A stretch of DNA of 64,000 nucleotides from an uncultured Actinomycetes bacterium (GTDB lineage: Bacteria > Actinomycetota > UBA4738 > HRBIN12): assembly GCA_963765865.1 (NCBI GenBank), contig CAVXYE010000007.1, positions 277,923 through 341,922 on the forward strand, read 5' to 3'. Below, piece by piece: positions 27,344-57,751 of this stretch; the stretch's first letter is position 1; each line of letters starts with the position of its first letter. Under the pieces are notes generated by a model. That model saw only the letters and a program-made list of their open reading frames with translations. It did not search any database and was not told where the DNA came from. Made by a program: the position numbers and the translations under genes.

Positions 27344-27354
27344 GAACGGTCCGC

Positions 27355-30412: not shown

Positions 30413-32074
30413 ATGTCGGAACGCAAGGTCGGGTCCGTCACCTACCAGGAGGTCGGTGAGGACTACTTCAAGCAGCGCGGCCTCCGGCGTCACGCCGGCG
30501 TGGTGTCGCTGTGGGCGCTCGGGGTCGGCGCCGTCATCTCCGGCGAGTACTACGGCTGGAACTTCGGCCTCAGCACCGGTGGTTTCGGGGGCCTGCTCCT
30601 CGCCGGCGTCGTGATGGCCGTCATGTATTACGGCCTCGTCTACTCGATCGCCGAGATGTCGCCCGCCCTGCCCCACACCGGCGGCGCCTACTCGTTCGCG
30701 CGTTCGGCGATGGGACCGTGGGGCGGATTCCTCACCGGCTTGGCCGAGAACATGGAGTACGTGATCACACCCGCGGTCGTCGCAGGGGCGATGGCCCTGT
30801 TGATGCAGACGATCGTCACGGGCCTGTTCGACGTCGGTGGGACCTTCGTTGACGGGAAGCTCACGGACATCGCGTGGTGGAACAGCCTGCCGGTGTGGAT
30901 GGCCGTGTTCTACGTCATCTTCGTGTGGATCAACATCGTCGGGATCGAAGCCACGATGCGATTCACCGTCACGATCACCGTGCTCTCGATCGCGGTGCTC
31001 GTCTTCTTCTTCCTCGCGACGATCTTCTCCGGCAAGTTCGACTCGAGCTTCTGGACGAACATCCCGAAGGATTGGGACGGAGAGTCCGCGTTGCTCGCCG
31101 GGGGCGGTGGACCATTCCTGCCGTTCGGCATCGCCGGGATCTTCAAGGCGCTTCCGTTCGCGATCTGGTTCTTCCTCGCCATCGAGGAGGTACCGCTCGC
31201 GGCCGAGGAGTCGATGGATCCCCGGCGCGACGTCCCGAAGGGGTCGGTGCTGGCGATGCACACCTTGTTGATCGCCGCCATCCTGACCCTGTTCCTCAAC
31301 ACCGGTCTGCCGGAGGGGGCCGGCTTCTACGGCTCGTCCGCGTTCCCGCTCCTGGACGGGTTCACGGCGATCTTCGGAACGGGAAAGGTGACCTACCTCC
31401 TCGGGTTGCTGTTCATGATCGGGTTGATCGCGAGCTTCTTCACGATCATCTTCGCCTATGGTCGGAACACGTTCTCCCTGTCGCGGGCCGGCTACTTCCC
31501 GAAGTTCTTGTCGGTGACGCACGGGGAGCGGAAGACCCCGCACGTCGCCCTGATCGCAGGCGCCATCGTCGGGTACGCGGTCGCGGTACTCGTCTACATC
31601 CTCCAAGAGAAGGCGCTGGGCGCGAAGATCGTCGCGGCCTTGCTGAACATGGCCGTCTTCGCCGCGGTGATCTCGTACATCTTCCAGATGACGTCGTTCG
31701 TGGTCCTCCGGAGGAAGCTGCCGAACATCGAGCGACCGTATCGGAGTCGTTGGGGGATCCCCGGGGCGGTCATCGCGGGGGCCTTGGCCGCGACCGCCCT
31801 GGTCGCGATCTTCTTGAACGACGCGTATCGACCCGGCGTCTATGGGGTCGCGATCTACTACGTCCTCGGGGTCTTGTACTTCGCGATCGCGGGACGGAAC
31901 CGCCTCGTGCTTTCACCGGAGGAGGAGTTCGCGCTCACGCAGGGTTCACGCGGCATCCCGGGCCAGGAGGGCTACGTGACCACGGCCGCCGAACAGGAGG
32001 CGATCCTCGGTGGTGGTACGGCGAGCGCACCCCCGCCCACGTCACCTCCACCGATGTCACCGCCGTCCGAGTAG
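30413..32074 (+). CDS. APC superfamily amino acid/amine permease
   Basis: ORF 30053..32074, trimmed to the ATG at 30413 (SD GAGAGGAGGGG). 12 TM helices. C-terminal Pro-rich tail. Confidence 0.85.
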   Translation: MSERKVGSVTYQEVGEDYFKQRGLRRHAGVVSLWALGVGAVISGEYYGWNFGLSTGGFGGLLLAGVVMAVMYYGLVYSIAEMSPALPHTGGAYSFARSAMGPWGGFLTGLAENMEYVITPAVVAGAMALLMQTIVTGLFDVGGTFVDGKLTDIAWWNSLPVWMAVFYVIFVWINIVGIEATMRFTVTITVLSIAVLVFFFLATIFSGKFDSSFWTNIPKDWDGESALLAGGGGPFLPFGIAGIFKALPFAIWFFLAIEEVPLAAEESMDPRRDVPKGSVLAMHTLLIAAILTLFLNTGLPEGAGFYGSSAFPLLDGFTAIFGTGKVTYLLGLLFMIGLIASFFTIIFAYGRNTFSLSRAGYFPKFLSVTHGERKTPHVALIAGAIVGYAVAVLVYILQEKALGAKIVAALLNMAVFAAVISYIFQMTSFVVLRRKLPNIERPYRSRWGIPGAVIAGALAATALVAIFLNDAYRPGVYGVAIYYVLGVLYFAIAGRNRLVLSPEEEFALTQGSRGIPGQEGYVTTAAEQEAILGGGTASAPPPTSPPPMSPPSE

Positions 32075-32142
32075 TCCCGACCCATCGCGGGGCGGCGGGC
32101 GATCCGCCCGCCGCCCCGCGACCGTGACGGCGAGGAGGCGAG

Positions 32143-33525
32143 ATGCAGCGGCAGGGGATGCTCACCATCGAGGAGCTCCAGGAGCTCGCCCGGAACAACC
32201 GGATCGACACCGTCCTCTGCATGTTCACCGACCTCCAGGGCCGGTACATGGGCAAGCGGGTGCTCCCGGACTTCTTCATCGAGGAGATCTTGGGCGCGGA
32301 AGGCCTGCACGCCTGTCTGTACCTGCTGGCGATCGACATGGAGATGGAGCCGCTCCCCGGGTACCGGTACGCCAGCTGGGAGACCGGCTACGGCGACTTC
32401 CGGATGATCCCGGATCTCACGACCCTCCGCTGGTGCCCGTGGATCGACAAGACCGCGATGGTGCTCTGCGACATCGCCGACGAGGACACGAGCGAGCCGG
32501 TCGCCGTCGCTCCTCGCCAGATCCTGAAGGACCAGATCGCGAAGGCCGCCGCCCAGGGGTATCAGGTCAAGACCGGGTCGGAGCTCGAGTTCTACCTCTT
32601 CAAGGACTCGTTCGACGATCTGGCGGAGCGCGCCTACCGAGATCCACGGCCGAGCTCCCCGTACATCATGGACTACCACATGCTGCAGACCACGAAAGAC
32701 GAGTGGTTCATCCGCCAGGTCCGCAACCACATGCGCGGTGCCGGTGTCCCGATCGAATTCTCCAAGGGGGAGTTCGGCAAGGGCCAGCACGAGATCAACA
32801 TCACCTACTCGGACGCGCTGTCGAACGCCGACCATCACGCGATCTACAAGCACGGTGCGAAGGAGATCGCCGCGCTCAGCGGCGTGGCGCTCACGTTCAT
32901 GGCGAAGTGGACGATGGCCGAGGCCGGTTCCTCGTGCCACCTCCATTCCAGCGTGTGGGACGTGGACGGTTCGGAGTCGCTCATGTGGGGCGGCGACACG
33001 CCGCCCCACATGAGCGACACCTTCCGGTGGTACCTGGGCGGCCTGATGACCACCGCGCGCGAGATGGCCTGGATGTACGCGCCCTTCGTCAACTCCTACA
33101 AGCGCTACCAGCTGGGATCGTGGGCACCGACCGCGATCGTGTGGAGCCGCGACAACCGCACGTGCGGGTTCCGCACGGTCGGCGAGCACACGGGGTTCCG
33201 CGTGGAATGCCGGTTGCCGGGCGCCGACGCGAACCCGTACCTCGCCTTCGCCGCCACGATCGCGAGCGGGATGTGGGGGATCCGCAACAAGGTGGAACCA
33301 CCGGAGATGTTCCACGGCAACGCCTACGAGGCCAAGGACGTCCCCCGTGTCCCGACCTCGTTGCACGAGGCGGTCGAGACGTTCCGCGGATCGACGGTCG
33401 CACGCGAGGCGTTCGGGGACTTCGTGTTCGAGCACCTGTTGAACACGGCCGAACAGGAACAGATCATCTTCGACAACACGTGCGTGACCGACTGGGAGCT
33501 GGCCCGGTACTTCGAGCGCGGGTGA
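32143..33525 (+). CDS. Glutamine synthetase family protein (GlnA3/PuuA-like gamma-glutamyl-amine ligase)
   Basis: 460 aa. GS catalytic-domain motifs (KGEFGKGQHEIN, SGMWGIRNK). Confidence 0.85.
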   Translation: MQRQGMLTIEELQELARNNRIDTVLCMFTDLQGRYMGKRVLPDFFIEEILGAEGLHACLYLLAIDMEMEPLPGYRYASWETGYGDFRMIPDLTTLRWCPWIDKTAMVLCDIADEDTSEPVAVAPRQILKDQIAKAAAQGYQVKTGSELEFYLFKDSFDDLAERAYRDPRPSSPYIMDYHMLQTTKDEWFIRQVRNHMRGAGVPIEFSKGEFGKGQHEINITYSDALSNADHHAIYKHGAKEIAALSGVALTFMAKWTMAEAGSSCHLHSSVWDVDGSESLMWGGDTPPHMSDTFRWYLGGLMTTAREMAWMYAPFVNSYKRYQLGSWAPTAIVWSRDNRTCGFRTVGEHTGFRVECRLPGADANPYLAFAATIASGMWGIRNKVEPPEMFHGNAYEAKDVPRVPTSLHEAVETFRGSTVAREAFGDFVFEHLLNTAEQEQIIFDNTCVTDWELARYFERG

Positions 33526-33530
33526 GCGCG

Positions 33531-34575
33531 ATGGCAGACCTGAACGTCATCCCGTACCGACCTGAGCGGAGCGACTACGCGTGGACGTTCGGTGGCGCCG
33601 ATCCGGTGATGACGGTGAAGCCCGGGGACGTGCTCGAGCTCTGGACGGATGACTGCTTCACGGGACTCGTCAGCACCGTCGACGACCTGGCGTCGGAGAA
33701 GATCACGTTCCCGTTCCTGAACCCGCAGACGGGACCGTTCTTCGTCGAGGGGGCGGAGCCCGGCGACACGCTGGCGTTGCATCTCGTCTCCCTCGAACCC
33801 GCGAGGGACTGGGGCGTCTCGACGACCTTCCCGCTGTTCGGCGCGCTCACCTCGACCCTCGCGACGGTGACGCTGCAGGATCCGCTCGAGGAGCTCGTCT
33901 GGATCTACGAGGTGGACGCGACGCGGCGCACCGTCCGCTACGAAGCCCGGCGCAGCGACCACACCGTCGAGCTCCCGCTCGAGCCGATGCACGGCACGGT
34001 GGGCGTGGCGCCGGCCAACCTCGAGGCGCGCTCGGCACTGGTTCCCGGCCCGCACGGCGGCAACATGGACACGCCGGAGATGCGCGCGGGCACCACGTGT
34101 TACCTCGGCGTCAACGTTCCGGGCGCGCTGTTCTCGATCGGAGACGGCCATTACCGCCAGGGTGAGGGCGAGACGTGTGGCGTGGCCGTCGAAGGAGCGA
34201 TGGAGACCACGTTGATCGTCGATCTGATCAAGGGCCGCCAGACGCCCTGGCCGCGCTTGGAGGACGAGACCTACATCATGTCGACGGGTTCCGCGCGCCC
34301 GCTCGAGGATGCGTTCCGGATCGCCCACGGCGACCTGGTCCTGTGGCTCGTCGAGGAGTCCGGCCTGGACAAGCTCGACGCCTACCAGTTGGTGACGCAG
34401 ATCTCGGAGAGCCCCGTCGCGAACGTCTGCGACCCGAACTACACGTTCGTCGCGAAGGCCAGGAAGGAGTACCTCCCGGGTCGCGAGGTATACGGGCAGA
34501 CGCACGGCGGCTCGTGGAGATGGCAGTCGGCGTACCGGCGAGGCCCGAGGGAGCGAACCCGCTCCCTCATCCTGA
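33531..34575 (+). CDS. Acetamidase/formamidase (FmdA_AmdA) family amidase; no in-frame stop, 3' end uncertain
   Basis: MADLNVIPYRPE... is confidently family-like for about 316 aa. After about 34480 the frame becomes R-rich with rare codons and runs without a stop into the permease ATG at 34710. The only stop in the region (TGA at 34573) is in another frame. Confidence 0.55.
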
Positions 34576-34709
34576 CGGAGTACGTCCGAGGATTTCGCCT
34601 CGAGCGACGGCTGGACAGGCCCGCCCTCCGGTGCAACGATTCGCGCGACGTCAGCTGGTGGGGAACGCCCGCTCGACGGGCGCCTCCACCATTCGGGAGG
34701 GGGTGCCGC

Positions 34710-36259
34710 ATGGCAAGCCGAACCGACGAACAGGCGATGATCTCGGAGAAGGTCGCGCCGGTCCTCGTGGCGAGGACGCTCGGGCCGTTCGACCTCGTCG
34801 TGATCTTCGTCGCGATCGTCCTGTTCATCAACAACGCGGCGGGGGTGCAGGCCGCGGGACCGTCGATCTTCGTCTTCTGGATCCTCGCGTTCGCGACGTT
34901 CCTGATCACCGGCGGGTTCATCACCGCGCAGCTCGGCCGGATGTTCCCCGAGGAGGGATCCCTCTACGTGTGGACCCACAAGGTCCTGGGCCCGTTCTGG
35001 GGGTTCTTCGCCGGGTTCGTCGCCTGGTGGCCCGGCCCGATCTCGCTCGTGTTCATCGGGATCCTCGTGGCCAACTTCCTCCAATCGTTCGCGTCGTTCT
35101 TCACGTGCAACGGCGCGCCGTGCGAGATCCTCACGAAGAACTGGCAACTCGGGCTCGTGGTGCTCGCCGTCCTCTGGTTCAGCGCTTCGATGTCGTACCT
35201 GAAGATGCGCGTGACGCAGAACTACGTGAACGTACAGTTCTGGGCGTACGTCTCAGTGATCTTCTTGATCGGCCTCTCCGGCGTGATCTGGCTCCTGAAG
35301 GGGAACCCGTCCTCGACCTCGTTCGCCACGGGGTGGAACCCGTTCCAGGGCGAGCACGCTCGCGCTCGGACTTCCCGCGAACCTGACGTTCTTCTCCTTC
35401 GCGATCCTCGCCCTCCTCGGGATCGAGACGCCCCTGAACATGGGGGTCGAGGTCACGGGCGGCGAGAAGGCGATCAGGACGTTCCTGTTCTGGGGCAGCA
35501 TCATCGTGATGGCCGCCTACCTCTGGGCTACCTGGGGCAACATGGTCGTGATCGAGGCCGGAGGGGCGAACGGCACGACGGGCGGCGCGGAGACCGTCGG
35601 GCTCGCGATCGGCAAGTGGGCGGGAGCGCATCGTCTCGATCGTCATGGCGTGGGTGTTCCTGACCGTGGCGGTCGTCTACAACTACTCCTTCGGCCGACT
35701 GCTGTTCGTGTCCGGGCTGGAGAAGCGCCTCCCCCACCAGTTCGGCAAGGTCAACCGGAACAAGGTACCGGCGAACGCGATCACCTTGCAGACGGCGATC
35801 TCCACGATCCTCGCGATCTTCGTGTTCTTCATCGTGGGACGCGGAGAGGCAGACCCGTATAAGGCCTTCTACGTCCTCTACGCGGGCGTGACGATCGTGT
35901 GGTGCATCTCGACCGCGTTGTTGTTCCTCGACATCTTCTTCGCGAAGCGAGCCGAGCCGGAGCGGTTCGAGCAGGAGCGCCGGATCCCCGTCGGATGGCT
36001 CTTCGTCTGCGGCGCGGTCGGGTTCGTGGTCAACGTCCTGGCGGTGATGTTCATCTTCGTTGGGTCGTGGTACCCGACGGGATTCCCGGTCCTCAAGGTG
36101 TGGAACGAGTGGATGCTCGCGTTCACGGCCGTCTCCGTGATCTCGGGGATCGCGATCTACCTGATCTCGCAGCGCACGCGTCGCGGGAAGACCGACGTGG
36201 AGCTCCTCGGCGAGGGTGCGGCGACCCAGGAGATCGCGGAGGACACGTCCATGGCGTGA
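34710..36259 (+). pseudogene. APC superfamily permease, disrupted by two +1 frameshifts (or sequencing indels) at GGG runs near 35349 and 35623
   Basis: The protein continues across three frames: ...GWNPFQG | ASTLALGLPANLTFFSFAILALLGIETP...AIGKWA | ERIVSIVMAWVFLTV... Confidence 0.7.
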
Positions 36260-36287
36260 CCCGCTTCGACGCACGGAGGGCAGTGAT

Positions 36288-36314
36288 GGGGCCCCGCCCG
36301 AAGGGCGGGGCCCC
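36288..36314. terminator. GC-rich hairpin (12-bp perfect stem, GAA loop) between convergent genes; probable bidirectional terminator without a U-tract
   Basis: GGGGCCCCGCCC-GAA-GGGCGGGGCCCC. Confidence 0.5.
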
Positions 36315-36334
36315 ATCGCATCCGGGAACGTCCC

Positions 36335-37507: not shown

Positions 37508-37519
37508 CGAGCCCTCCGC

Positions 37520-38920: not shown

Positions 38921-38925
38921 CGGGC

Positions 38926-40254
38926 TTAGAACAGCTCCAGGTACTCGGCGCGCTCCCAGTCCGTGACCGAGTCCGTGAACCGGGAAAGCTCGTAGCGCCG
39001 CATGGCCGAGTACACGGTCACGAACTCTTCGCCGAAGAACTCCTTCGTCGCCGGCTCCTGTTCGAGCGCTTCCAGCGACTCCTCGAGCGCGATCGGGAGC
39101 TTCTCGAACGATGGATCCTCCTCGGCCGGGACGCCCGGCGTGGCCGGCTCGGGTGCGGGCAACCCCTCCTCGATGCCGCGCAGCCCCGCCTGGATCAACG
39201 CCGCCCCGACGAGGTAGGGGTTCGACAGCGCCGACGGCGCGCGGTACTCGATGTGCTTGTGCTCCGGGCCGCCGCCTTTCACCCGGACGAGCGCGGAGCG
39301 ATCCTCGAGGCCCCACGAGATGTTCGACGGACTGAACGTATGCGGCCGGCGCCGCCGGAGACAGTTCACGGTCGGAGCGATCACCGCGTCGAACGCGCGC
39401 GCGTACTTCAGGATCCCGGCGATGAACGAGCGACACGTGTCGGTCATCCCGTACGGGTCGTCGGCGTCGCCGAACGCGTTCTTCCCCGAGTCCGCGGAGA
39501 GCAGCGACAGGTGGGTGTGACACCCGCTCCCCGAATGATCCGCCCACGGTTTCGTCATGAACGTCGCGAGGTAGCCGTCCTGCTTCGCGATCTCCTTGAC
39601 CCCGTTCTTGAACGTGAAGGCGTCGTCCGGACCCGCGAGGCCGCGGCCGGGCGCGAAGTTGATCTCCCACTGCGACCCGGCGTACTCGCAGTTCGCGGTG
39701 ATGATGTCCACCCCGACCTTCGGCATCTCCTCGATGATCCGGCGGATCGTCGGGACGTAGTCGTTCCGGACGGTGTTGAAGATGTGATAGCCGTCGAAGA
39801 GCGGCTCGTGGGTGTCCCCCGTCAGGAGATAGAACTCGAACTCCGAGCCCATCAGCGTGTCGAACCCCATCGCACGAGCCTTCTCGAGCGCACGACGGAA
39901 GACGGAGCGAGGGGTCGCCGCCAGCGGCGTCCCGTCGTACCACTGCGCGTCACAGATGAACCTCGCCGTTCGGTCCATCCACGGGATCACCGCGGCCGAG
40001 TCCGGGTCGGGGAACAGCAACTGGTCGCCGTACCCCTTCTTGTCGTGGTACAGGGTGCCCGGGACGACGTCCGATCTCGTGTCGAGGACGCTCGCTCCCC
40101 CGTACATGTTGAGCCCGCGCTCGGCGTAGTCGAACGCGTGGGCGATCGGGATCGTCTTCGATCGCGAGATGCCGTGCATGTCGGGGAGCTCGAAGCGGAC
40201 GAATCCGATCCCGTCCGACTGCCAGCCCCCGAGGATCTCCCTGACGTCGCTCAT
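38926..40254 (-). CDS. Glutamine synthetase family protein (gamma-glutamyl ligase paralogue)
   Basis: ATG at 40254 with SD GGAAGGAGccggcATG. GS beta-grasp and catalytic domains. Confidence 0.85.
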   Translation of the reverse strand: MSDVREILGGWQSDGIGFVRFELPDMHGISRSKTIPIAHAFDYAERGLNMYGGASVLDTRSDVVPGTLYHDKKGYGDQLLFPDPDSAAVIPWMDRTARFICDAQWYDGTPLAATPRSVFRRALEKARAMGFDTLMGSEFEFYLLTGDTHEPLFDGYHIFNTVRNDYVPTIRRIIEEMPKVGVDIITANCEYAGSQWEINFAPGRGLAGPDDAFTFKNGVKEIAKQDGYLATFMTKPWADHSGSGCHTHLSLLSADSGKNAFGDADDPYGMTDTCRSFIAGILKYARAFDAVIAPTVNCLRRRRPHTFSPSNISWGLEDRSALVRVKGGGPEHKHIEYRAPSALSNPYLVGAALIQAGLRGIEEGLPAPEPATPGVPAEEDPSFEKLPIALEESLEALEQEPATKEFFGEEFVTVYSAMRRYELSRFTDSVTDWERAEYLELF

Positions 40255-40321
40255 GCCGGCTCCTTCCGTCCCGCGCAACGGCTCCCGGTGTGGTGGGTAT
40301 ACCTTGACGGCCCATTGGTCC

Positions 40322-40336
40322 GCAACGGGGCGTTGC
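40322..40336. promoter_or_regulatory. Perfect inverted repeat GCAACG-GGG-CGTTGC in the divergent GS/aminotransferase promoter region
   Basis: Lies next to an 8-bp palindrome GGTATACC (40295-40302) and a TTGACG -35-like hexamer. Confidence 0.3.
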
Positions 40337-40397
40337 CCTACGCTAGGCGGAAGGCGGGACCGTGCGGGCAGGCACGGCCCGCGTGAAGGGGAGCCGG

Positions 40398-41774
40398 ATG
40401 GCCGACGCGTCGATCCAGAGCGAGCGAACGCACGTCTTCCCGCTCGAGCTCGGACGGGCCATGCCGGTCATCGCCCGCGGCGACGGCGTCTGGATCGAGG
40501 ACACCGCCGGTCGTCGGTACCTGGACGCGATGAGCGGCGGTTCGATGGCGGCGACGCTCGGCCACGGCCGCCGCGACATCATCGAGGCCGCCCGCGTCCA
40601 GGCCGGGAAGCTCGCCTACGCGCACAACGAACGGCTCACGAACCCGCTCCAGGAACGGCTGGCGAACGAGCTGATCGCGGTCGCTCCGGAAGGGTTCGGT
40701 CGCGTGAAGTTCACGGTCGCCGGAGCGGACGCCATCGAGATGGCGATCCAGCTCGCCCGGAGCTATCACGTCGAGCGAGGCGAGGGCGATCGCTGGCAGG
40801 TGATCTCGCCGGCGCAGGCGTATCACGGCCCCACGATGGAGACCCTCGCCCTCACGGGACGACCCGGGCTGCACGGCCCGTTCGGCCCCTACCTGCCCCA
40901 ACACCTCCATATCCCGCCGAGCACGTGGCGGTTCGACCCGAGCGGCGAAGCGGCGCTCGAGGCTCTCGATCGCGCCCTCGAGCAAGCAGGTCCGGGGAAC
41001 GTCTCCGCGTTCTTCTGCGAGGCGATCAGCGCCGCCGCCCTGCCCGCCTACACCCCGCCACGCCGCTTCTGGGAGGGCCTCGCCGAGCGCCGCGAGCGCT
41101 TCGGCTTCCTCGTGTGCTTCGACGAGGTCGTGACCGGCGTCGGCCGCACGGGGAACTGGTTCGCCGGCGCGGCGACCGCGTGCGTCCCCGACATCATCGC
41201 GACCGCGAAGGGGCTCGGAGCCGGCTACGCGGCGATCGGGGCGGTGCTCGTCCGCGAGCACGTCTACGACGCCGTCGCCGGGGGATCGCGACGCTTCACC
41301 CCCGGGCACACCTGGGACGGGGCCCCGCTCGCAGCGGCGGTCGGTCTCGCGGTGTTGGAGGCGCTGCGGTCGGAGCGGCTCGTGGAACGGGTCCGGGACC
41401 GGGGACCGAGCCTGCGGGATGAGCTCGAACGCGCGCTGGCCGGCATCCCCTTGGTTCGCGAGGTGCGTGGCCACGGCTACCTGCTCGGGGTGGAGTACGT
41501 CGATCCGCGCGACAACACCTCGTTCCTGCCGCGCGAGCTACGGGTCGCCGGACGGATCGACGACGTCGCGTTCGAGCGGGGCCTGATCACCCTGTCCACG
41601 CAACCGACGCGCGACGGCTTCGCGGGGGATCAGTCGTTGTTCGCCCCGGCGTTCACGGCGACGGACGAGGAGCTCGCGGAGATGGTTTCCCGGTTCGCCG
41701 AGGTGGTCGGTCACGTCGCGGAGGACGTCGAGCGAGAGCTCTCGATCCTGTCCACCAGCGGAGGTCCCCGATGA
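40398..41774 (+). CDS. Class III (omega) aminotransferase, PLP-dependent
   Basis: ORF 40362..41774, trimmed to the ATG at 40398. Confidence 0.85.
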   Translation: MADASIQSERTHVFPLELGRAMPVIARGDGVWIEDTAGRRYLDAMSGGSMAATLGHGRRDIIEAARVQAGKLAYAHNERLTNPLQERLANELIAVAPEGFGRVKFTVAGADAIEMAIQLARSYHVERGEGDRWQVISPAQAYHGPTMETLALTGRPGLHGPFGPYLPQHLHIPPSTWRFDPSGEAALEALDRALEQAGPGNVSAFFCEAISAAALPAYTPPRRFWEGLAERRERFGFLVCFDEVVTGVGRTGNWFAGAATACVPDIIATAKGLGAGYAAIGAVLVREHVYDAVAGGSRRFTPGHTWDGAPLAAAVGLAVLEALRSERLVERVRDRGPSLRDELERALAGIPLVREVRGHGYLLGVEYVDPRDNTSFLPRELRVAGRIDDVAFERGLITLSTQPTRDGFAGDQSLFAPAFTATDEELAEMVSRFAEVVGHVAEDVERELSILSTSGGPR

Positions 41775-42499
41775 CCCCTCCCGATGCGACTGCCACCCCG
41801 ATGCGGGCCCTGATCCTCCAGCACGAGGAGCCCACGCCGCCGGGCCTCGTCACCGAGTGGCTCGGTGGCCACGGCGCGAGCGTCGAGACGTTCCGGATCG
41901 ACGTCCACGACCGCGAGGTGGATCCGACCCGCTACGACCTCATCGTGTCGCTGGGGTCGGAGTTCGCCGCGTTCGACGACACGAAGCCGTTCGTCCCCCG
42001 CGAGGCGAGCCTGCTGCGACGAGCGGTGGACGCGGAGGTGCCGGTGCTCGGTCTCTGCTTCGGCGGTCAGATGCTCGCGCGCGTCCTCGGCGGCGAGGTG
42101 TATCGCTCGTCCGACTCGGAGATCGGCTGGCTCCCGGTGAAGAGCACCGACCCCGAGATGGTGCCGGAAGGACCGTGGTTCCAGTGGCACTTCGACACGT
42201 TCGCGCTTCCGCCCGGAGCGACCCTGATGGCCGAGACGGACGTTGGCCCACAGGCCTTCGTGATGGGTCGGAGCCTCGGGCTGCAGTTCCATCCCGAGGT
42301 CACGACCGACATCATGACCGACTGGGTGCGCGAGTACCGCCACGAGCTCGACGCGGACGGCGTGGATCCGGACGCCCTGCTCGAGGAGACGAAGCGACGT
42401 GCCGTGGACAGCAAGCGGATGTCGTTGCGGCTCATGGACTGGTTCCTCCGCGATGTCGCGCGACTCCACCCGGGCCGTTCGCGGGCGACCCTCGGCTGA
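41771..42499 (+). CDS. Class I glutamine amidotransferase-like protein
   Basis: 242 aa. GLCFGGQ catalytic Cys and HPE motif. ATGA overlap with the upstream aminotransferase. Confidence 0.8.
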   Translation: MTPPDATATPMRALILQHEEPTPPGLVTEWLGGHGASVETFRIDVHDREVDPTRYDLIVSLGSEFAAFDDTKPFVPREASLLRRAVDAEVPVLGLCFGGQMLARVLGGEVYRSSDSEIGWLPVKSTDPEMVPEGPWFQWHFDTFALPPGATLMAETDVGPQAFVMGRSLGLQFHPEVTTDIMTDWVREYRHELDADGVDPDALLEETKRRAVDSKRMSLRLMDWFLRDVARLHPGRSRATLG

Positions 42500-42509
42500 G
42501 GAGACGACG

Positions 42510-43866
42510 ATGGAGGGGGCGGTCCGGTCGGAGGACACGAAGGTGTTCCCCCGCTTCCTCGACCTGCCGTACCCGAGCATCGAACGAGGCGACGGGGTCT
42601 GGCTCACCACGACCGACGGCCGGCGCATCCTCGACGCCTGCTCCGGCGGCGCCATGGTCGCGTGTCTGGGACACGGTGTCCCCGCGGTCGTCGCGGCGGC
42701 GGCCGGACAGGCCGAGGCCATCTCGTACTTCTACAACCACCATTTCACGAACGAGCCGCAGGAGCGGCTCGCCGACCGTCTGCTGGAGATCGCGGCCCCG
42801 GAGATGGCGCGGATCCGGTTCGTCTCGGGTGGCTCCGAAGCCAACGAGACGGCGCTACAGCTCGCGCGGCTCTACCACGTGGAGCGAGGCGATGCGGACC
42901 GCTGGCGGGTGATCTCCCCCGCGCAGGCCTACCACGGTTCCACGATGGGAACGCTCGCCCTGAGCGGCCGTCGCACGCTGCAGGAGCCGTACACCCCGTA
43001 CCTCGCGCACCACCTGCACCTCGAGCCATCGACGTGGCGGTTCGACCCGACCGGCGAGGCCGCGCTGCGACGACTCGACGAACTCCTCGACGAGGCCGGG
43101 CCGGAGACGATCGCGGCGTTCTTCTGCGAGCCCGTGAGCGCAGCGGCGTTGCCCGCCTACTCGCCGCCGGAAGCGTTCTGGCGCGGGCTGGACGAGCGGC
43201 GCGCGGAGCACGGCTTCTTGATCTGCTTCGACGAAGTGGTCACCGGGATGGGACGCACCGGGACGTGGCTCGCCGCTCATCAGCTGCCGATCGAGCCCGA
43301 CATCGTGACCGTCGGCAAGGGCCTCGGGGCCGGATACGCGCCACTCGGCGGGGTGTTCTGCAGGCAGGACGTGTACGACGCGATCGATCGCGGGTCGCGC
43401 GAGTTCGACCTGGGGCATACGTGGGACGGCGCCCCGGTGTCGTCCGCCGTCGGCTTGGCGGTCCTCGATCTCCTCGTCGAACGGGCACCTGGTGGAACGG
43501 GTCCACGACCGGGGACCCCGCCTGCGCGACGAGCTCGAAGCGGCGCTCGAAGGCTCCGAGATCGTCAAAGAGGTGCGGGGGCGCGGGTTCCTGCTGGGTG
43601 TGGAGCTCGTCGACCCGCGCGACGGCGAGTCGTTCCTCCCGGTCGAGCTGGACGCGGCGTCGCTCGTGGACGACGCCGCGTTCGAACGTGAGCTCCTCGT
43701 CACGTCGACCCATCCACAGGCCGACGGCTTCGCCGGCGACCAGACGCTCCTCGCTCCCGCGTACACGAGCTCGGACCACGAGCTGGGAGCGATGGTCGAC
43801 CGTTTCGCCGCCACGATCGAGGACGTGGAGGGCGCGATCAAGGACGCCTTGACGAGGACCGCATGA
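42510..43866 (+). CDS. Class III aminotransferase paralogue with an apparent +1 frameshift at a GGG run near 43483-43485
   Basis: Frame 0 reads ...AVLDLLVER then turns to R/G/P junk. Frame +1 continues as HLVERVHDRGPRLRDELEAAL..., colinear with the paralogue at 40398. Confidence 0.7.
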
Positions 43867-45152
43867 GCGCCGGCTCGGGTGAGGAGTTCGTCCTCCTCGG
43901 GATCCCCGACGTCAACGGCTCGATCCGAGGGAAGGCGCTCCGGCCGGATGCGTTCGACTCGGCCGTCAAGCACGGAACGGTGATGACGGACCTGATCCTC
44001 GGGCTCGATCCCGTGGACACGCCCATCACCGACTACGAACGCTTCGGGATCCGGACGGGGGCAGCGGACCTGATCGTTCGCCCGGACGTCGAGACACTCC
44101 GGGATCTGGCGTGGCGGCCGGGCTGGCGTGTCTGCCTGGCCACCCCCAGCTGGCCCGACGGTTCACCGTGCGACTTCGCGACGCGCGAGGTCCTCCGGCG
44201 GGTCCTCGCCGACGCGGAAGATCTGGGGTACGAGGTGATGTCCGCGATCGAGTACGAGATCCGGATCTGGGATGCCCAGGGAAGCCCGACGTCGAGCGGT
44301 ATCAGCTACAGCCTGAACGAGATCGGAGGCTACGACCGATTCCTCGACGAGCTCGTCCGCGCCGTGGAAGGGCTCGGGATCGAGCTCTCCGCGGTCCATA
44401 CCGAGGCGGGCCCGGGCCTGTTGGAGCTCAACCTCGGCGCGCGGCGAGGGCTCGCGGCTGCCGATGACGCCGCCCTCCTGAAGTTCGGGGTCAAGCGGCT
44501 GGCCGCATCGTTGGGCTTGCGCGCCAGTTTCCTGGCGAAGACCGCACCCGGAGAGGAGGGGTCGAGCGGACACGTCCACATGTCGTGGTGGCAGGGCGGA
44601 ACCAGCGCGTTCGCATCCGGCGGCCGCGATGCTGCGATCCCCGCTGTGTTCGGGTCGGCGATCGCCGGCGTCCTGGAACACCTCCCGGCAGCCTCCCTGC
44701 TGTTGAACCCGACGATCAATTCGTACAAGCGCCTCGTTCCCGGATGGTTCGCGCCGATCAACGCGACCTGGGGCTACGACAACCGTTCGTGTGCGGTGCG
44801 CGCGATCCGCTCGGACCGACCGGAGCTCTGGCGGTTCGAGTGCCGTCGGCCCGGCGCCGACGCCAACCCCTACCTGGCGCTCGCCGCGATCGGCGCGTCG
44901 GCGGCGGACGGGATCCGCAAGGGGATCGATCCGCCGGACCCCGTCGTCGGAGACGCGTACGCCAGCGAGCTCCCCGAGCTGCCGTCCTCGCTCGAGTCGG
45001 CCCTCCGGGCCTTCGAGACCGACGACGTGTTGCGGGGGTCGCTGGGGAAGGACTTCGGCGACTACTACGCGACGTCTCGGGGATGGGAGCTCAAGGCCTG
45101 GCGCGAGACGGTCACGGACTGGGAGCGCGCGCGGTACGACCGATCCGTCTAG
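43863..45152 (+). CDS. Glutamine synthetase family protein (fourth paralogue)
   Basis: 429 aa GS catalytic domain. ATGA overlap with the aminotransferase. Confidence 0.85.
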   Translation: MSAGSGEEFVLLGIPDVNGSIRGKALRPDAFDSAVKHGTVMTDLILGLDPVDTPITDYERFGIRTGAADLIVRPDVETLRDLAWRPGWRVCLATPSWPDGSPCDFATREVLRRVLADAEDLGYEVMSAIEYEIRIWDAQGSPTSSGISYSLNEIGGYDRFLDELVRAVEGLGIELSAVHTEAGPGLLELNLGARRGLAAADDAALLKFGVKRLAASLGLRASFLAKTAPGEEGSSGHVHMSWWQGGTSAFASGGRDAAIPAVFGSAIAGVLEHLPAASLLLNPTINSYKRLVPGWFAPINATWGYDNRSCAVRAIRSDRPELWRFECRRPGADANPYLALAAIGASAADGIRKGIDPPDPVVGDAYASELPELPSSLESALRAFETDDVLRGSLGKDFGDYYATSRGWELKAWRETVTDWERARYDRSV

Positions 45153-48360: not shown

Positions 48361-48363
48361 ACC

Positions 48364-49326: not shown

Positions 49327-49355
49327 GCGCCCTCGCCCTCGCGGCCGTCCTGACC

Positions 49356-57750: not shown

Positions 57751-57751
57751 C

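What the first reader, a model, noticed from the sequence alone, without database searches (positions are those of the whole stretch)
30413..45152. Catabolic island with four glutamine-synthetase-family ligases, two omega-aminotransferases, class I amidotransferase-like hydrolases, a formamidase, an amidohydrolase and two APC permeases
GS-like enzymes of the GlnA2/3/4 and PuuA type gamma-glutamylate amines (polyamines, ethanolamine, isopropylamine, cadaverine). PuuD-like class I GATase proteins hydrolyse the gamma-glutamyl products, and class III aminotransferases act on the resulting omega-amino acids. Four ligase paralogues at one locus, with duplicated aminotransferase and GATase genes, is unusually dense. 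It suggests parallel gamma-glutamylation routes for several amines, or an iterative pathway. Downstream, a CoA-transferase/ACAD/ETF block points to a dicarboxylate (e.g. glutarate from cadaverine or 5-aminovalerate) as an end product.
Basis: partly seen in the sequence, partly recalled or inferred. Interest (0 to 1): 0.65.

Follow-up and report, generated by a model that had tools for sequence, protein, structure and literature searches.

The report
Amine-degrading gene cluster with four ligases
A soil actinobacterium known only from metagenomes carries four very different glutamine-synthetase-like enzymes next to transaminases, hydrolases and transporters; the set most likely breaks down amines by first tagging them with glutamate, which is a known strategy in an unusually dense and well-conserved layout.

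Summary
Window 30413-45152 encodes four GS-like ligases, two class III aminotransferases, one class I GATase, an FmdA/AmdA amidase, an Amidohydro_2 protein and two APC permeases.

None of the four ligases is a true glutamine synthetase. All keep the metal, ATP and glutamate residues. All lack the FDGSS ammonium motif and the Glu327 flap, and all score far below the curated GS cut-offs.

Comparison with more than 40 related loci, all from uncultured soil Actinomycetota MAGs, shows a mosaic:
- **Ethanolamine-type module:** a GlnA4-type permease plus GS1.
- **Conserved core:** Perm2 | Amh2-GS2-GS3 | AT1-GAT-AT2-GS4. GS2-Amh2 is the known GlnA3/SCO6961 (split FluG) pair.
- **Variable accessories:** aldehyde dehydrogenase, a PuuD-like C26-GrpB fusion, the amidase, and a real glutarate block (CoA-transferase, glutaryl-CoA dehydrogenase, ETF).

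The best reading is parallel gamma-glutamylation routes for mono- and diamines. Transaminases take the place of the Puu/Pau oxidase.

The second permease and second aminotransferase are broken by single-base frameshifts, and the CoA-transferase/ACAD "fusion" comes from one extra base. These are probably long-read assembly errors.

This is a new variant of a known kind, of moderate interest.

The parts
22368..23798 (-). Aldehyde dehydrogenase of the amino-aldehyde type. It is an accessory of the pathway and in this window lies about 8.5 kb to the left of GS1.
   Evidence: The best NCBIfam matches are betaine-aldehyde dehydrogenase (516 bits) and aminobutyraldehyde dehydrogenase (460 bits), both below cut-off. 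It is 38% identical to E. coli PuuC. Its orthologue (about 80% identity) lies directly beside GS4 in 15 related loci, and beside SDR-Perm1-GS1 in L022.
23958..24725 (+). Short-chain dehydrogenase, divergent from the aldehyde dehydrogenase. It is probably part of the ethanolamine-type module.
   Evidence: Pfam calls on L001 give adh_short, and an NCBIfam SDR model matches. L022 and L025 have GS1-Perm1-SDR(-Aldh) contiguous. This is the same gene set as the Streptomyces glnA4 cluster (PMC6529630).
29234..29965 (-). GntR/UTRA regulator. It is the first gene of a GntR-DeoC-ZnADH-FGGY operon and is divergent from permease 1/GS1.
   Evidence: Pfam GntR and UTRA. GTG start with an upstream GGAGG. The same position relative to Perm1/GS1 is seen in L008, L010, L011, L019, L039 and L052.
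30413..32074 (+). APC permease 1, ethanolamine-permease-like.
   Evidence: Pfam AA_permease. TIGR00908 ethanolamine permease scores 340.5 bits, just under the cut-off of 381.75.
32143..33525 (+). GS-like ligase 1, of the GlnA4/Csal_0679 type. Inferred to be a gamma-glutamyl-ethanolamide-type synthetase.
   Evidence: Gln-synt_C at 2e-90. PDB 11zs at 3e-138 and 5dm3 (Chromohalobacter salexigens) at 9e-124, with 47% and 46% identity, and it groups with them in the tree. Flap Glu327 is Trp.
33531..34560 (+). Acetamidase/formamidase-family amidase of unknown specificity. The 3' end is uncertain because there is no in-frame stop in this assembly.
   Evidence: Pfam FmdA_AmdA. PDB 5ubu, a putative acetamidase/formamidase, at 2e-72. 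It is 80% identical to the intact 339-aa gene in L052. It is present next to permease 2 in 11 related loci, and also in L059 and L060.
34710..36259 (+). APC permease 2, part of the conserved core. In this assembly it is split over three frames by +1 frameshifts at 35358 and ~35617.
   Evidence: Pfam AA_permease_2 matches the N- and C-terminal pieces. It is collinear with the intact 524-aa protein of L052 in frames 3, 1 and 2. L002 reads through uninterrupted. It is adjacent to Amh2 in nearly all loci.
36335..37507 (-). Amidohydro_2 metal hydrolase (Amh2), last gene of the GS3-GS2-Amh2 operon. It is a counterpart of SCO6961 and of the FluG N-terminal region.
   Evidence: Pfam PF04909. The best PDB match is 2qpx (1e-21), the same bacterial protein used as a stand-in for the FluG N-terminal region (PMC6478659). 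An HxH motif sits at the N-terminus. Homologues lie directly after the GS2 homologue in Streptomyces and Deinococcus replicons.
37520..38920 (-). GS-like ligase 2, of the GlnA3/PA5508 type. Inferred to be a gamma-glutamyl-polyamine or monoamine synthetase.
   Evidence: Gln-synt_C plus Gln-synt_N_2. The best PDB match is 4hpp (PA5508) at 7e-68. It gives the highest GGputSyn score of the four (340 of the 650 needed). It is 44-47% identical to Streptomyces GS-like genes, two of which (S. rimosus and Streptomyces sp. BHT-5-2) are followed by an amidohydrolase. Lys replaces Arg359 in all 28 orthologues.
38926..40254 (-). GS-like ligase 3, first gene of the minus-strand operon. It has no characterised close relative.
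   Evidence: Gln-synt_C at 1e-89. The best PDB matches are true GSI-alpha enzymes at only 220 bits, but FDGSS reads YGGAS and Glu327 is Phe in 29 of 29 orthologues. It is 45% identical to a Rhizobium plasmid GS-like gene that sits beside a GATase and an ABC transporter. A 5-nt gap separates it from the GS2 start.
40255..40397 (.). Divergent control region between the two core operons, with conserved sequence blocks.
   Evidence: An alignment of about 30 loci shows two conserved blocks: TGGGTATACC...CGCAACGG and GCCnTACGCT. GGGTATACC occurs exactly only here in the window. There is no Rfam match and no strict sigma-70 consensus match.
40398..41774 (+). Class III omega-aminotransferase 1.
   Evidence: Aminotran_3 at 1.5e-71. 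The PDB neighbours include 6gwi, a putrescine aminotransferase, and 9j4z, a polyamine:pyruvate transaminase. Its stop overlaps the GATase start (ATGA).
41771..42499 (+). Stand-alone class I GATase-type hydrolase. Inferred to be a gamma-glutamyl-amide hydrolase.
   Evidence: Pfam GATase and Peptidase_C26. PDB 7d54 at 1e-44, which is the M. smegmatis stand-alone GATase. The GLCFGGQ nucleophile motif and HPE are present (sequence).
42510..43866 (+). Class III omega-aminotransferase 2, 58% identical to no. 1. It is split by an extra C at 43482 in this assembly.
   Evidence: Aminotran_3 matches both pieces. The extra base is absent from L001, L002, L054 and L055. The gene is an intact 446 aa in L052.
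43863..45152 (+). GS-like ligase 4, last conserved gene of the plus-strand operon.
   Evidence: Gln-synt_C at 1.5e-85. The nearest annotated relative is the ipuC-annotated gene (gamma-glutamylisopropylamide synthetase) of Paenarthrobacter aurescens pTC1, at 37-38% identity. Glu327 is Phe in 23 of 23 orthologues. Its start overlaps the AT2 stop.
45165..46328 (-). Glutaryl-CoA dehydrogenase. It is a separate gene with its own ribosome-binding site and ATG.
   Evidence: PDB 3sf6 at 566 bits, and nine of the ten best matches are named (putative) glutaryl-CoA dehydrogenase. AAGGAG lies before the ATG at 46328. It is in a separate frame from the CoA-transferase in L054, L008 and L011.
46325..47552 (-). 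Family III CoA-transferase (glutarate/succinate type). It appears fused to the dehydrogenase only because of one extra base at 46351.
   Evidence: CoA_transf_3 at 6e-121. The best NCBIfam match is succinate-glutarate CoA-transferase, 375 bits against a cut-off of 750.
47608..49326 (+). Electron-transfer flavoprotein beta (47608-48360) and alpha (48364-49326).
   Evidence: Pfam ETF and ETF_alpha. The genes are also adjacent to the cluster in L054 and L060.
49330..51308 (+). Membrane Fe-S/CCG oxidoreductase, the likely ETF-oxidising partner. The start is approximate.
   Evidence: Two CCG domains and 4Fe-4S dicluster domains. A hydrophobic N-terminus is visible in the translation. The resemblance to mycobacterial EtfD rests on my own knowledge and was not tested.
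51329..52035 (+). Second class I GATase. It is an orthologue of the GATase that lies beside GS1 in relatives. There is a frameshift near 51770.
   Evidence: It is 51-53% identical to the L052 GATase-2 in two frames. Pfam GATase matches the first piece.
52044..53310 (+). PuuD-like Peptidase_C26 fused to a GrpB domain. There is a frameshift near 53038.
   Evidence: Peptidase_C26 at 1e-46, and the GrpB profile is split 65|68 between two frames. It is 32% identical to E. coli PuuD. An intact 439-aa orthologue directly follows GS4 in L052 and L053, and orthologues follow GS4 in L010, L019, L031 and L032.

Best explanation
The region is a composite amine-catabolic locus of an uncultured soil Actinomycetota species. 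It is built from modules that all use the gamma-glutamylation strategy. In that strategy an ATP-dependent GS-like ligase attaches the amine to the gamma-carboxyl of glutamate, the carbon chain is oxidised while the nitrogen is masked, and a GATase/C26-type hydrolase then releases glutamate.

**Module A: Perm1-GS1.** In relatives this module also carries a GATase, an SDR and an aldehyde dehydrogenase. It is the GlnA4-type route for ethanolamine or a similar small amino alcohol.

**Module B: the conserved core.** It consists of permease 2 and two divergent, translationally coupled operons, GS3-GS2-Amh2 and AT1-GAT-AT2-GS4(-C26/GrpB). It handles di- or polyamines in these inferred steps:
1. Permease 2 takes up the amine.
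2. One of three ligases with different specificity glutamylates one amino group.
3. An omega-transaminase, not a PuuB/PauB oxidase, removes the other amino group.
4. The aldehyde dehydrogenase makes the gamma-glutamyl-omega-amino acid.
5. GAT, C26 or Amh2 hydrolyses it.
6. The second transaminase and the dehydrogenase give succinate or glutarate.

**Module C: glutarate use in this species group.** The adjacent CoA-transferase, glutaryl-CoA dehydrogenase, ETF and Fe-S oxidoreductase take glutarate further. That is the product expected from cadaverine or 5-aminovalerate.

**Shown:** gene content, family assignments, retention of catalytic residues, loss of the ammonium site, operon structure and synteny.

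**Inferred:** the substrates, the order of steps, the idea that a transaminase acts on the glutamylated amine, and which hydrolase does what.
For: **Ligase chemistry.** The ExE motif, E212, E220, H269, H271, R321, R339, R344, E357 and R/K359 are invariant in 10-28 orthologues of each ligase. The FDGSS motif is absent, and Glu327 is replaced by Trp, Trp, Phe and Phe, as in E. coli PuuA where it is Tyr. All four score well below the curated GS I, GS III and GlnII cut-offs.

**Module identities.**
- GS1 matches 11zs and 5dm3 and sits beside a near-cut-off ethanolamine permease. The gene set matches the Streptomyces glnA4 cluster.
- GS2 matches 4hpp and Amh2 matches 2qpx. This is the same pair used to replace FluG and corresponds to the polyamine-induced glnA3-SCO6961 operon. 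The GS-then-amidohydrolase order recurs in Streptomyces and Deinococcus.

**Partner enzymes.**
- AT1 and AT2 resemble putrescine and polyamine:pyruvate transaminases.
- GAT resembles the mycobacterial stand-alone GATase.
- The C26 domain is 32% identical to PuuD, and the aldehyde dehydrogenase is 38% identical to PuuC.

**Linkage.** The core is syntenic in at least 24 species-level MAG loci with variable flanks. Stops and starts overlap or nearly abut. The divergent promoter region is conserved. The gene calls of L001, L002, L052, L053, L059 and L060 show no FAD amine oxidase. The flanks of the other loci were screened only with this window's own proteins, so an oxidase gene there would not have been detected.

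**Glutarate block.** One search identifies the glutaryl-CoA dehydrogenase, and one search gives the CoA-transferase match. In the window, the ETF and Fe-S genes run on the same strand and 8-20 bp apart into GAT2' and C26-GrpB.
Against: - No substrate is established for any protein here, and none reaches a curated equivalog cut-off.
- I know of no precedent for an omega-transaminase acting on a gamma-glutamyl-diamine. The transaminases could instead act on free amines, as in the SpuC/PatA route, in parallel with the ligases.
- GS3 and GS4 have no characterised relative above about 45% and 38% identity.
- The roles of Amh2 and the FmdA-family amidase are open. Either could act upstream and release amines from amides.
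- The glutarate block is linked to the cluster in only a few relatives.
- In this assembly permease 2, AT2, GAT2' and C26-GrpB are frameshifted. If those shifts are real, the pathway is defective in this strain.
- An oxidase gene could lie elsewhere in the genome.
Confidence: 0.6

Rival explanations
1. Iterative pathway for a single polyamine. GS2, GS3 and GS4 act one after another on the several amino groups of one polyamine (spermidine or spermine) or on successive breakdown products, so all three are obligate steps of one route.
For: The three ligases are co-localised and co-oriented with two transaminases in at least 24 genomes. GS3 and GS2 are translationally coupled. Polyamines carry 3-4 amino groups, and GlnA3-type enzymes accept spermidine and spermine.
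Against: Gene content is modular. L027 keeps AT1-GAT-AT2-GS4, Amh2 and the aldehyde dehydrogenase but lacks GS2 and GS3. L022, L030, L035 and L059 add a fifth GS. In P. aeruginosa the seven PauA paralogues differ in substrate and are not sequential steps. No C-N-cleaving oxidase or dehydrogenase for secondary amines is encoded in the locus.
Confidence: 0.12
2. Decaying island. The frameshifts in permease 2, AT2, GAT2' and C26-GrpB are real mutations, so this strain carries a partly pseudogenised pathway.
For: Four of the cluster's genes (permease 2, AT2, GAT2' and C26-GrpB) are interrupted, and the CoA-transferase reading frame is altered as well, relative to intact relatives. The +T near 35617 is shared with the independent contig L001. 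None of the insertions lies in a long homopolymer.
Against: A frameshift also breaks an unrelated ABC permease at ~57320. The two closest contigs, L001 and L002, come from long-read assemblies and carry about 10-14 private coding indels each over the same 21 kb. L054 has none of the window's coding indels over 37.4-49.4 kb, and L055 also lacks the extra C at 43482. GC3 codon bias stays high through all the shifted segments.
Confidence: 0.2
3. Biosynthetic or detoxifying role instead of catabolism. The ligases make gamma-glutamyl amides as end products (storage, osmolyte, signalling as proposed for FluG, or neutralisation of toxic polyamines), and the transaminases supply the amines.
For: GlnA2 and GlnA3 protect Streptomyces against toxic polyamine levels (abstracts). 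The FluG-type pair has a developmental role in fungi. GS-like ligases also occur in natural-product pathways (my own knowledge).
Against: Uptake permeases, two or three gamma-glutamyl hydrolases, an aldehyde dehydrogenase and, in this lineage, glutarate/ETF genes are linked to the ligases. That combination fits complete breakdown. No exporter or tailoring genes are conserved with the core.
Confidence: 0.06
4. One or more of the four proteins are ordinary glutamine synthetases used for ammonium assimilation.
For: The best structural-database matches for GS3 are true GSI-alpha enzymes. All four keep the full catalytic core.
Against: The scores are 200-252 bits against cut-offs of 429 (GS I) and 470 (GS III). 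The FDGSS motif is absent and flap Glu327 is replaced in every orthologue. The genes lie in amine-catabolic operons.
Confidence: 0.02

Closest known systems
Streptomyces coelicolor glnA3-SCO6961 operon (gamma-glutamylpolyamine synthetase plus Amidohydro_2), Mycobacterium tuberculosis GlnA3 (Rv1878), and the fused fungal protein FluG
   Same: A GS-like ligase is followed on the same strand by an Amidohydro_2 gene. GS2 and Amh2 have as their best solved relatives PA5508 (4hpp) and LSEI_0440 (2qpx), the pair that can replace FluG. GS2 is 44-47% identical to Streptomyces GS-like genes, two of which are followed by an amidohydrolase. The Streptomyces operon is induced by polyamines.
   Different: Here the pair is embedded in a larger conserved block with two further ligases, two transaminases, a GATase and a permease. 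There is no SCO6960-like small gene. I could not compare directly with the SCO6962 or Rv1878 sequences.
GlnA4 ethanolamine-utilisation cluster of Streptomyces (SCO1610-1615) and the Csal_0679 locus of Chromohalobacter salexigens
   Same: GS1 is 46-47% identical to the solved GS-like proteins 11zs and 5dm3, and 5dm3 is from C. salexigens. The neighbours are a divergent regulator, an ethanolamine-type permease and, in relatives, a GATase, an SDR and an aldehyde dehydrogenase. That is the same gene set as.
   Different: In this window the module is scattered. The SDR and aldehyde dehydrogenase lie about 8 kb to the left, the GATase lies 18 kb to the right, and an FmdA-family amidase follows GS1 instead. 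The permease scores just under the ethanolamine-permease cut-off. Ethanolamine as the substrate is inferred.
Escherichia coli Puu pathway (puuP, puuA, puuD, puuC, puuB, puuE)
   Same: The logic is the same: permease, gamma-glutamyl ligase, aldehyde dehydrogenase, C26 hydrolase and class III aminotransferase. Identities are 38% between PuuC and the aldehyde dehydrogenase, 32% between PuuD and the C26 domain, and 27-29% between PuuA and the ligases.
   Different: There is no PuuB-type FAD oxidase in the locus or in the related loci whose gene calls were read. Transaminases of the pyruvate-dependent omega-TA type are present in two copies. There are several ligases instead of one. The permeases are not PuuP orthologues.
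Pseudomonas aeruginosa Pau/Spu system (seven pauA, four pauB, pauC, two pauD; spuABC operon)
   Same: There are many GS-like paralogues with different amine specificities. The AT1-GAT-AT2-GS4 operon has the same family content as spuC-spuA-spuB: a polyamine:pyruvate transaminase, a GATase-type hydrolase and a ligase (the spu gene order is from my own knowledge).
   Different: In Pseudomonas the paralogues are scattered around the chromosome and work with PauB oxidoreductases and ABC uptake. Here three to five ligases are clustered, and uptake is by an APC permease. I made no direct sequence comparison with SpuA, SpuB or SpuC.
Isopropylamine (ipu) cluster, as annotated on Paenarthrobacter aurescens pTC1
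   Same: GS4's nearest annotated relative is ipuC (37-38% identity). That cluster also combines a ligase with two GATases, an SDR and an aldehyde dehydrogenase.
   Different: The ipu cluster oxidises the alkyl chain with a P450, a ferredoxin and a reductase. The cluster here has none of these and has transaminases instead. That difference points to substrates with a second amino group.
Glutarate catabolism through a family III CoA-transferase and glutaryl-CoA dehydrogenase (GcoT/GcdH of Pseudomonas putida) with ETF
   Same: The dehydrogenase scores 566 bits to a solved mycobacterial glutaryl-CoA dehydrogenase. The adjacent CoA-transferase has succinate-glutarate CoA-transferase as its best match. 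ETF genes lie next to them.
   Different: The CoA-transferase is below the curated cut-off. The block is beside the amine cluster only in the closest relatives. The single-ORF fusion seen in the window is an indel artefact.

Membership tests
True glutamine synthetase (GS I / GS III / GlnII) | Reaches the curated equivalog score (TIGR00653 at 429 bits, TIGR03105 at 470 bits, NF041605 at 500 bits) | tested here: not met
   GS1 to GS4 score 233, 200, 251 and 213 bits on TIGR00653, and 236, 200, 252 and 200 bits on TIGR03105.
True glutamine synthetase (GS I / GS III / GlnII) | Ammonium site: the FDGSS motif (Asp50/Ser53) and the flap residue Glu327 | tested here: not met
   The FDGSS motif is found only in E. 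coli GlnA. In GS3 it reads YGGAS, and it is not recognisable in the other three. Glu327 is Trp, Trp, Phe and Phe, and this is invariant in 11, 28, 29 and 23 sequences respectively. Tyr179 could not be assigned reliably because the result depends on the alignment.
GS-like gamma-glutamylamine synthetases (PuuA, PauA, GlnA2/3/4, IpuC) | Intact GS catalytic core: two metal sites, ATP-binding and glutamate-binding residues | tested here: met
   The ExE motif, E212, E220, H269, H271, R321, R339, R344, E357 and R359 (Lys in GS2) are conserved in all orthologues.
GS-like gamma-glutamylamine synthetases (PuuA, PauA, GlnA2/3/4, IpuC) | Genomic linkage to a gamma-glutamyl hydrolase (GATase class I or C26), an aldehyde dehydrogenase and an amine transporter | tested here: met
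GS-like gamma-glutamylamine synthetases (PuuA, PauA, GlnA2/3/4, IpuC) | ATP-dependent gamma-glutamylation of an amine in vitro | not testable with these tools
   This needs enzyme assays.
Gamma-glutamylputrescine synthetase (NCBIfam NF045547) | Score at or above the curated cut-off of 650 bits | tested here: not met
   GS2 scores 340, GS3 234, GS4 210 and GS1 187 bits.
GlnA3/SCO6961 and FluG-type ligase-amidohydrolase pair (applies to GS2 and Amh2) | The ligase is directly followed by an Amidohydro_2 gene on the same strand, and the pairing is conserved across taxa | tested here: met
   A 12-nt gap separates the two genes in the window. The pair is present in nearly all the related loci, including the distant L040, L041 and L046. 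The same order is seen in two Streptomyces and four Deinococcus replicons. The Streptomyces operon is described.
GlnA3/SCO6961 and FluG-type ligase-amidohydrolase pair (applies to GS2 and Amh2) | Homology to the proteins that define the pair (PA5508/4hpp and LSEI_0440/2qpx) | tested here: met
   Each is the best PDB match: 7e-68 for GS2 and 1e-21 for Amh2. Their use as FluG surrogates is described.
GlnA4 ethanolamine module (applies to GS1) | Orthology to a characterised gamma-glutamylethanolamide synthetase | tested here: inconclusive
   GS1 is 46-47% identical to 11zs and 5dm3. The latter comes from the organism with a predicted glutamylation route for ethanolamine.
GlnA4 ethanolamine module (applies to GS1) | Adjacent ethanolamine permease | tested here: inconclusive
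   TIGR00908 scores 340.5 bits against a cut-off of 381.75.
E. coli-type Puu pathway | Gamma-glutamylputrescine oxidase (PuuB) in the gene set | tested here: not met
   No FAD amine oxidase appears in the window's island or in the gene calls of L001, L002, L052, L053, L059 and L060. The rest of the genome was not available.
Glutaryl-CoA dehydrogenase | Closest relatives are solved or characterised glutaryl-CoA dehydrogenases over the full length | tested here: met
   3sf6 scores 566 bits and 3swo 525 bits. Nine of the ten best matches are named (putative) glutaryl-CoA dehydrogenase, and the next ACAD classes score 225 bits or less.
Formamidase (FmdA) | Score at or above the NCBIfam NF045496 cut-off of 500 bits | tested here: not met
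   It scores 61.7 bits. It is a member of the broader FmdA_AmdA family only.

The most novel reading that the evidence does not exclude
The conserved core (permease | GS3-GS2-Amh2 | AT1-GAT-AT2-GS4) encodes an oxidase-independent form of the gamma-glutamyl polyamine pathway. In it, omega-transaminases act on gamma-glutamylated diamines, and three to five non-redundant ligases widen the substrate range. This would be a third route of polyamine catabolism, beside the Puu/Pau oxidase route and the free-amine transaminase route. It would be characteristic of an abundant, uncultured soil Actinomycetota lineage.
Probability: 0.2. Interest if true: 0.55.

Novelty: new variant of a known kind. Interest (0 to 1): 0.36.

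Why it matters
Gamma-glutamylation is an established way for bacteria to use or detoxify amines. Its enzymes are usually scattered around the genome, however, and in actinomycetes the steps after the ligase are still only predicted.

This cluster places three to five deeply diverged ligases, their candidate hydrolases, two transaminases and a permease in one conserved block. The lineage that carries it is very common in soil metagenomes. That gives a compact, testable set for three tasks:
- assigning substrates to orphan GS-like families (GS3 and GS4 have no characterised close relative);
- finding out what the FluG/SCO6961-type amidohydrolase does;
- testing whether a transaminase can replace the oxidase step.

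It also bears on how uncultured soil bacteria recycle the polyamines and cadaverine released from dead biomass.

The finding does not point to a new kind of chemistry.

Tried and rejected
- **Wrong-frame query for the amidase.** My first synteny pass seemed to show that the FmdA-family amidase is unique to this species. That was my own error, a query translated in the wrong frame. The corrected search finds it next to permease 2 in 11 loci.
- **Ammonium-site residues.** Calls for Asp50, Ser53 and Tyr179 from one multiple alignment changed in a second alignment. I kept only the motif-level result (FDGSS absent) and the stable Glu327 replacement, and dropped Tyr179.
- **Homologue search with GS3.** It returned only relatives at 80% identity or more, without informative names. 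It showed how abundant the lineage is but gave no characterised homologues, so I did not repeat it for the other ligases.
- **Exact-protein look-ups.** The window's Amh2 and GS4 found nothing, so the source contig is not in that collection.
- **Reference sequences.** I could not obtain the S. coelicolor or M. tuberculosis GlnA2/3/4 sequences. The papers I read do not print them. The requested phylogeny therefore uses proxies: E. coli GlnA and PuuA, two PDB sequences read off alignments, and plasmid-borne genes. The NJ tree has no support values.
- **Control-region scans.** The strict sigma-70 scan found no sites, and terminator-like sites were no more frequent than in shuffled sequence. Rfam found nothing in 29-54 kb. 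The conserved GGGTATACC block has no second exact copy in the window, so no regulon could be defined.
- **Cultured relatives.** The GS2 homologues in Streptomyces sp. NBC_00184 and Nonomuraea lack an adjacent amidohydrolase. These copies are uninformative.
- **True GS function.** I considered it and rejected it; see the membership tests.

Full report
**What is in the sequence**

The window is about 70% G+C, so I called genes from third-position GC and not from ORF length. Pfam then confirmed the inventory in the finding. The stated ends, 30413 and 45152, are the start of the first permease and the stop of the fourth ligase. In order, the genes are:
- APC permease 1: 30413-32074 (+)
- GS-like 1: 32143-33525 (+)
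- FmdA/AmdA-family amidase: 33531-~34560 (+)
- APC permease 2: 34710-36259 (+)
- Amidohydro_2 (Amh2): 36335-37507 (-)
- GS-like 2: 37520-38920 (-)
- GS-like 3: 38926-40254 (-)
- Class III aminotransferase AT1: 40398-41774 (+)
- Class I GATase: 41771-42499 (+)
- Aminotransferase AT2: 42510-43866 (+)
- GS-like 4: 43863-45152 (+)

All starts follow a GGAGG-type ribosome-binding site. Several stops and starts overlap (ATGA) or are 5-12 nt apart. This gives two divergent operons, GS3-GS2-Amh2 and AT1-GAT-AT2-GS4.

Only one GATase lies inside the stated range. Two further gamma-glutamyl-hydrolase-type genes lie downstream: a second GATase at 51329-52035 and a Peptidase_C26-GrpB fusion at 52044-~53310.

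**Origin and sequence quality**

The GS1 protein occurs exactly on two long ENA metagenome contigs, which are 99.2% and 98.8% identical to the window, and on short JGI and ENA soil contigs. A scan of species-representative genomes with Amh2 returned 41 loci. All are MAGs labelled Actinomycetota, many from long-read assemblies. The organism is therefore an uncultured soil actinobacterium.

Against relatives with intact genes, the window carries single-base frameshifts at these positions:
- Permease 2: +G at 35358 and +T near 35617. The second is shared with contig L001.
- AT2: +C at 43482.
- Second GATase: near 51770.
- C26-GrpB: near 53038, where the GrpB profile is split 65|68 between frames.
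- An unrelated ABC permease: near 57320.

An extra base at 46351 joins the CoA-transferase and acyl-CoA dehydrogenase into one ORF. In L054, L008 and L011 they are two genes, and the dehydrogenase has its own ribosome-binding site and ATG.

A targeted metagenome scan for the AT2 site found only the intact allele. The two sister long-read contigs each carry about 10-14 private coding indels over the same 21 kb, and one frameshift lies outside the island. I therefore consider assembly error the most likely cause, at roughly three in four. Real decay in this strain is the alternative.

**The four ligases are not glutamine synthetases**

They are only 27-31% identical to one another, to E. coli GlnA and to PuuA. 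None reaches the curated scores for GS I, GS III, GlnII or gamma-glutamylputrescine synthetase.

All keep the ExE metal motif, E212, E220, H269, H271, R321, R339, R344, E357 and R359 (Lys in GS2). This holds for every orthologue I could extract, 10-28 per family. The FDGSS ammonium motif is absent; in GS3 it reads YGGAS. The flap Glu327 is Trp, Trp, Phe and Phe, as it is Tyr in PuuA. Assignments of Asp50, Ser53 and Tyr179 from alignments alone were unstable, so I do not rely on them.

The four proteins do not behave as true GS.

**Each ligase has a different nearest relative**

- **GS1** matches two solved GS-like proteins, 11zs (3e-138) and 5dm3 from Chromohalobacter salexigens (9e-124), at 46-47% identity. 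C. salexigens is the organism for which a glutamylation route for ethanolamine was predicted.
- **GS2** carries the Gln-synt_N_2 domain and is closest to PA5508 (4hpp, 7e-68).
- **GS3** is closest to real GSI-alpha enzymes, but only at 220 bits. Its best annotated relative, at 45% identity, is a Rhizobium plasmid GS-like gene beside a GATase and an ABC transporter.
- **GS4** is closest, at 37-38% identity, to the ipuC-annotated gene of Paenarthrobacter aurescens pTC1.

A rough neighbour-joining tree separates four clades, and a fifth for an extra paralogue found in some relatives.

**The locus is a mosaic**

I located the window's proteins in the 41 genome loci and in four further loci.

A core block recurs in at least 24 species-level genomes at 70-95% identity: permease 2 | Amh2-GS2-GS3 | AT1-GAT-AT2-GS4. 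The intergenic region between GS3 and AT1 has conserved blocks, TGGGTATACC...CGCAACGG and GCCnTACGCT.

What follows GS4 varies:
- an amino-aldehyde-type aldehyde dehydrogenase in 15 loci (in the window its orthologue is at 22368-23798);
- the C26-GrpB gene in at least six loci, 6 bp after GS4 in L052;
- ETF and Fe-S genes in L060;
- the CoA-transferase and glutaryl-CoA dehydrogenase in L008, L011 and L054.

GS1 with permease 1 is a separate unit and is present beside the core in about a dozen loci. In L022 it is contiguous with a GATase, an SDR and an aldehyde dehydrogenase. That is the composition of the Streptomyces glnA4 ethanolamine cluster.

The amidase accompanies permease 2 in at least 13 loci. 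L027 lacks GS2 and GS3. L022, L030, L035 and L059 have a fifth, GS2-like ligase. In the most distant loci (L040, L041, L046) only GS2 and Amh2 remain together.

**The GS2-Amh2 pair is a known unit**

In S. coelicolor, glnA3 (a gamma-glutamylpolyamine synthetase) is co-transcribed with the Amidohydro_2 gene SCO6961, and both are induced by polyamines. The fungal protein FluG is a fusion of the same two domains. It can be replaced by the bacterial proteins PA5508 and LSEI_0440. These are the best solved relatives of GS2 (4hpp) and Amh2 (2qpx, 1e-21).

In the plasmid collection, GS2's best matches are Streptomyces genes at 44-47% identity. Amh2's matches lie directly downstream of the GS2 homologue in two Streptomyces and four Deinococcus replicons.

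**The partner enzymes**

- AT1 and AT2 are 58% identical and belong to the pyruvate-type omega-transaminases. Their solved neighbours include a putrescine aminotransferase and a polyamine:pyruvate transaminase.
- The GATase is closest to the stand-alone M. smegmatis enzyme 7d54. It keeps the Cys nucleophile and the His-Pro-Glu motif.
- The C26 domain is 32% identical to PuuD, and the aldehyde dehydrogenase is 38% identical to PuuC.
- Permease 1 is just under the ethanolamine-permease cut-off. Permease 2 has only faint similarity to amino acid/amine antiporters.
- No FAD amine oxidase appears in the window's island or in the gene calls I read for related loci.

**Most likely mechanism**

I read the region as parallel gamma-glutamylation routes.

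*Module A.* Permease 1 and GS1, together with a GATase, an SDR and an aldehyde dehydrogenase, deal with ethanolamine or a similar amino alcohol, as proposed for GlnA4.

*Module B.* The core deals with di- or polyamines in these steps:
1. Permease 2 takes up the amine.
2. One of three ligases masks one amino group.
3. A transaminase removes the other amino group, in place of the PuuB/PauB oxidase.
4. The aldehyde dehydrogenase forms the gamma-glutamyl-omega-amino acid.
5. GAT, C26 or Amh2 hydrolyses it.
6. The second transaminase and the dehydrogenase give succinate or glutarate.

The contrast with the ipu cluster supports a diamine substrate. That cluster oxidises a monoamine with a P450 system. 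Here transaminases take the place of the oxygenase, which makes sense only if the substrate has a second amino group.

*Glutarate use.* In this species group glutarate would be consumed by the neighbouring genes. The dehydrogenase scores 566 bits to a solved glutaryl-CoA dehydrogenase. The CoA-transferase's best match is succinate-glutarate CoA-transferase. ETF and an Fe-S/CCG membrane protein follow, and they run on the same strand straight into the second GATase and C26-GrpB.

*What is shown and what is inferred.* The family assignments, catalytic residues, operon structure and synteny are shown. The substrates, the step order, and a transaminase acting on a glutamylated amine are inferred. 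Amh2 and the amidase might instead act first, freeing amines from amides.

**Comparison with known systems and verdict**

The strategy is that of E. coli Puu, P. aeruginosa Pau/Spu (seven dispersed pauA genes with different specificities) and the Streptomyces GlnA2/3/4 enzymes. The GS2-Amh2 pair and the GS1 module are members of described units.

Three things differ:
- three to five anciently diverged ligases are packed into one conserved block;
- the transaminase is duplicated;
- no oxidase is present.

GS3 and GS4 are orphan families. I rate this a new variant of a known kind, with interest 0.36. It is a good experimental entry point for orphan GS-like enzymes and for the unexplained FluG-type amidohydrolase, but it is not a surprise in principle.

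The most novel reading still open is an oxidase-free, transaminase-driven gamma-glutamyl pathway typical of this abundant soil lineage. I give it a probability of about 0.2.

Noticed in passing
window 35358, ~35617, 43482, 46351, ~51770, ~53038, ~57320: At least seven single-base frameshifts occur in about 23 kb relative to intact relatives. One is in an ABC permease outside the island. The pattern looks like residual long-read assembly error, so gene calls on this contig need homology-aware correction.
   Followed up: partly
window 45165-47552 (-): The 795-aa CoA-transferase/acyl-CoA dehydrogenase fusion ORF is created by one extra base at 46351. In L054, L008 and L011 the CoA-transferase stop overlaps the dehydrogenase ATG, so they are two coupled genes.
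   Followed up: yes
window 52044-~53310 (+); L052 3819-5138: A PuuD-like Peptidase_C26 domain is fused to a GrpB domain. The fusion is conserved as a 439-aa protein directly after GS4 in several relatives. I know of no described role for GrpB in gamma-glutamyl metabolism.
   Followed up: partly
window 40255-40397: The divergent control region carries blocks conserved across about 30 species: TGGGTATACC (containing the palindrome GGTATACC) ... CGCAACGG, and GCCnTACGCT. On the minus strand it reads as TTGCGn-N18-TATA(A/C)C, a plausible GS3 promoter. No regulator gene is conserved with the core.
   Followed up: partly
window 25838-29965 (-): A GntR(UTRA)-DeoC aldolase-Zn alcohol dehydrogenase-FGGY kinase operon with overlapping genes lies between the SDR/aldehyde dehydrogenase pair and permease 1/GS1. 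It travels with the cluster in many relatives. Its substrate is unknown and might be linked to a C2 or C3 product of amino-alcohol breakdown.
   Followed up: no
L022 11177-12481; also L030, L035 and L059 13967-15316: Some relatives carry a fifth GS-like gene between Amh2 and permease 2. It is 37% identical to GS2 and has the Gln-synt_N_2 domain. L027 lacks GS2 and GS3 altogether.
   Followed up: partly
window 53602-54705 (+); L052 2260-3630: A conserved hypothetical protein lies next to C26-GrpB. It has a signal-peptide-like N-terminus and a long Gln/Asn/Thr/Ser-rich region. It has no Pfam or NCBIfam match.
   Followed up: no
window 49330-51308 (+): A membrane-anchored Fe-S protein with two CCG domains follows etfBA. 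From memory it resembles the mycobacterial ETF-oxidising protein EtfD, but I did not test this.
   Followed up: no
window 46952-47054 compared with L054: L054 lacks 103 bp inside the CoA-transferase gene relative to the window. This could be a real deletion or an assembly join in that contig.
   Followed up: no
window 54761-60782 (+): An Opp/Dpp-type ABC transporter (SBP_bac_5, two permeases and ATPases) lies downstream. It is a possible peptide or gamma-glutamyl-compound uptake system, but it is not conserved with the cluster in the loci I examined.
   Followed up: no
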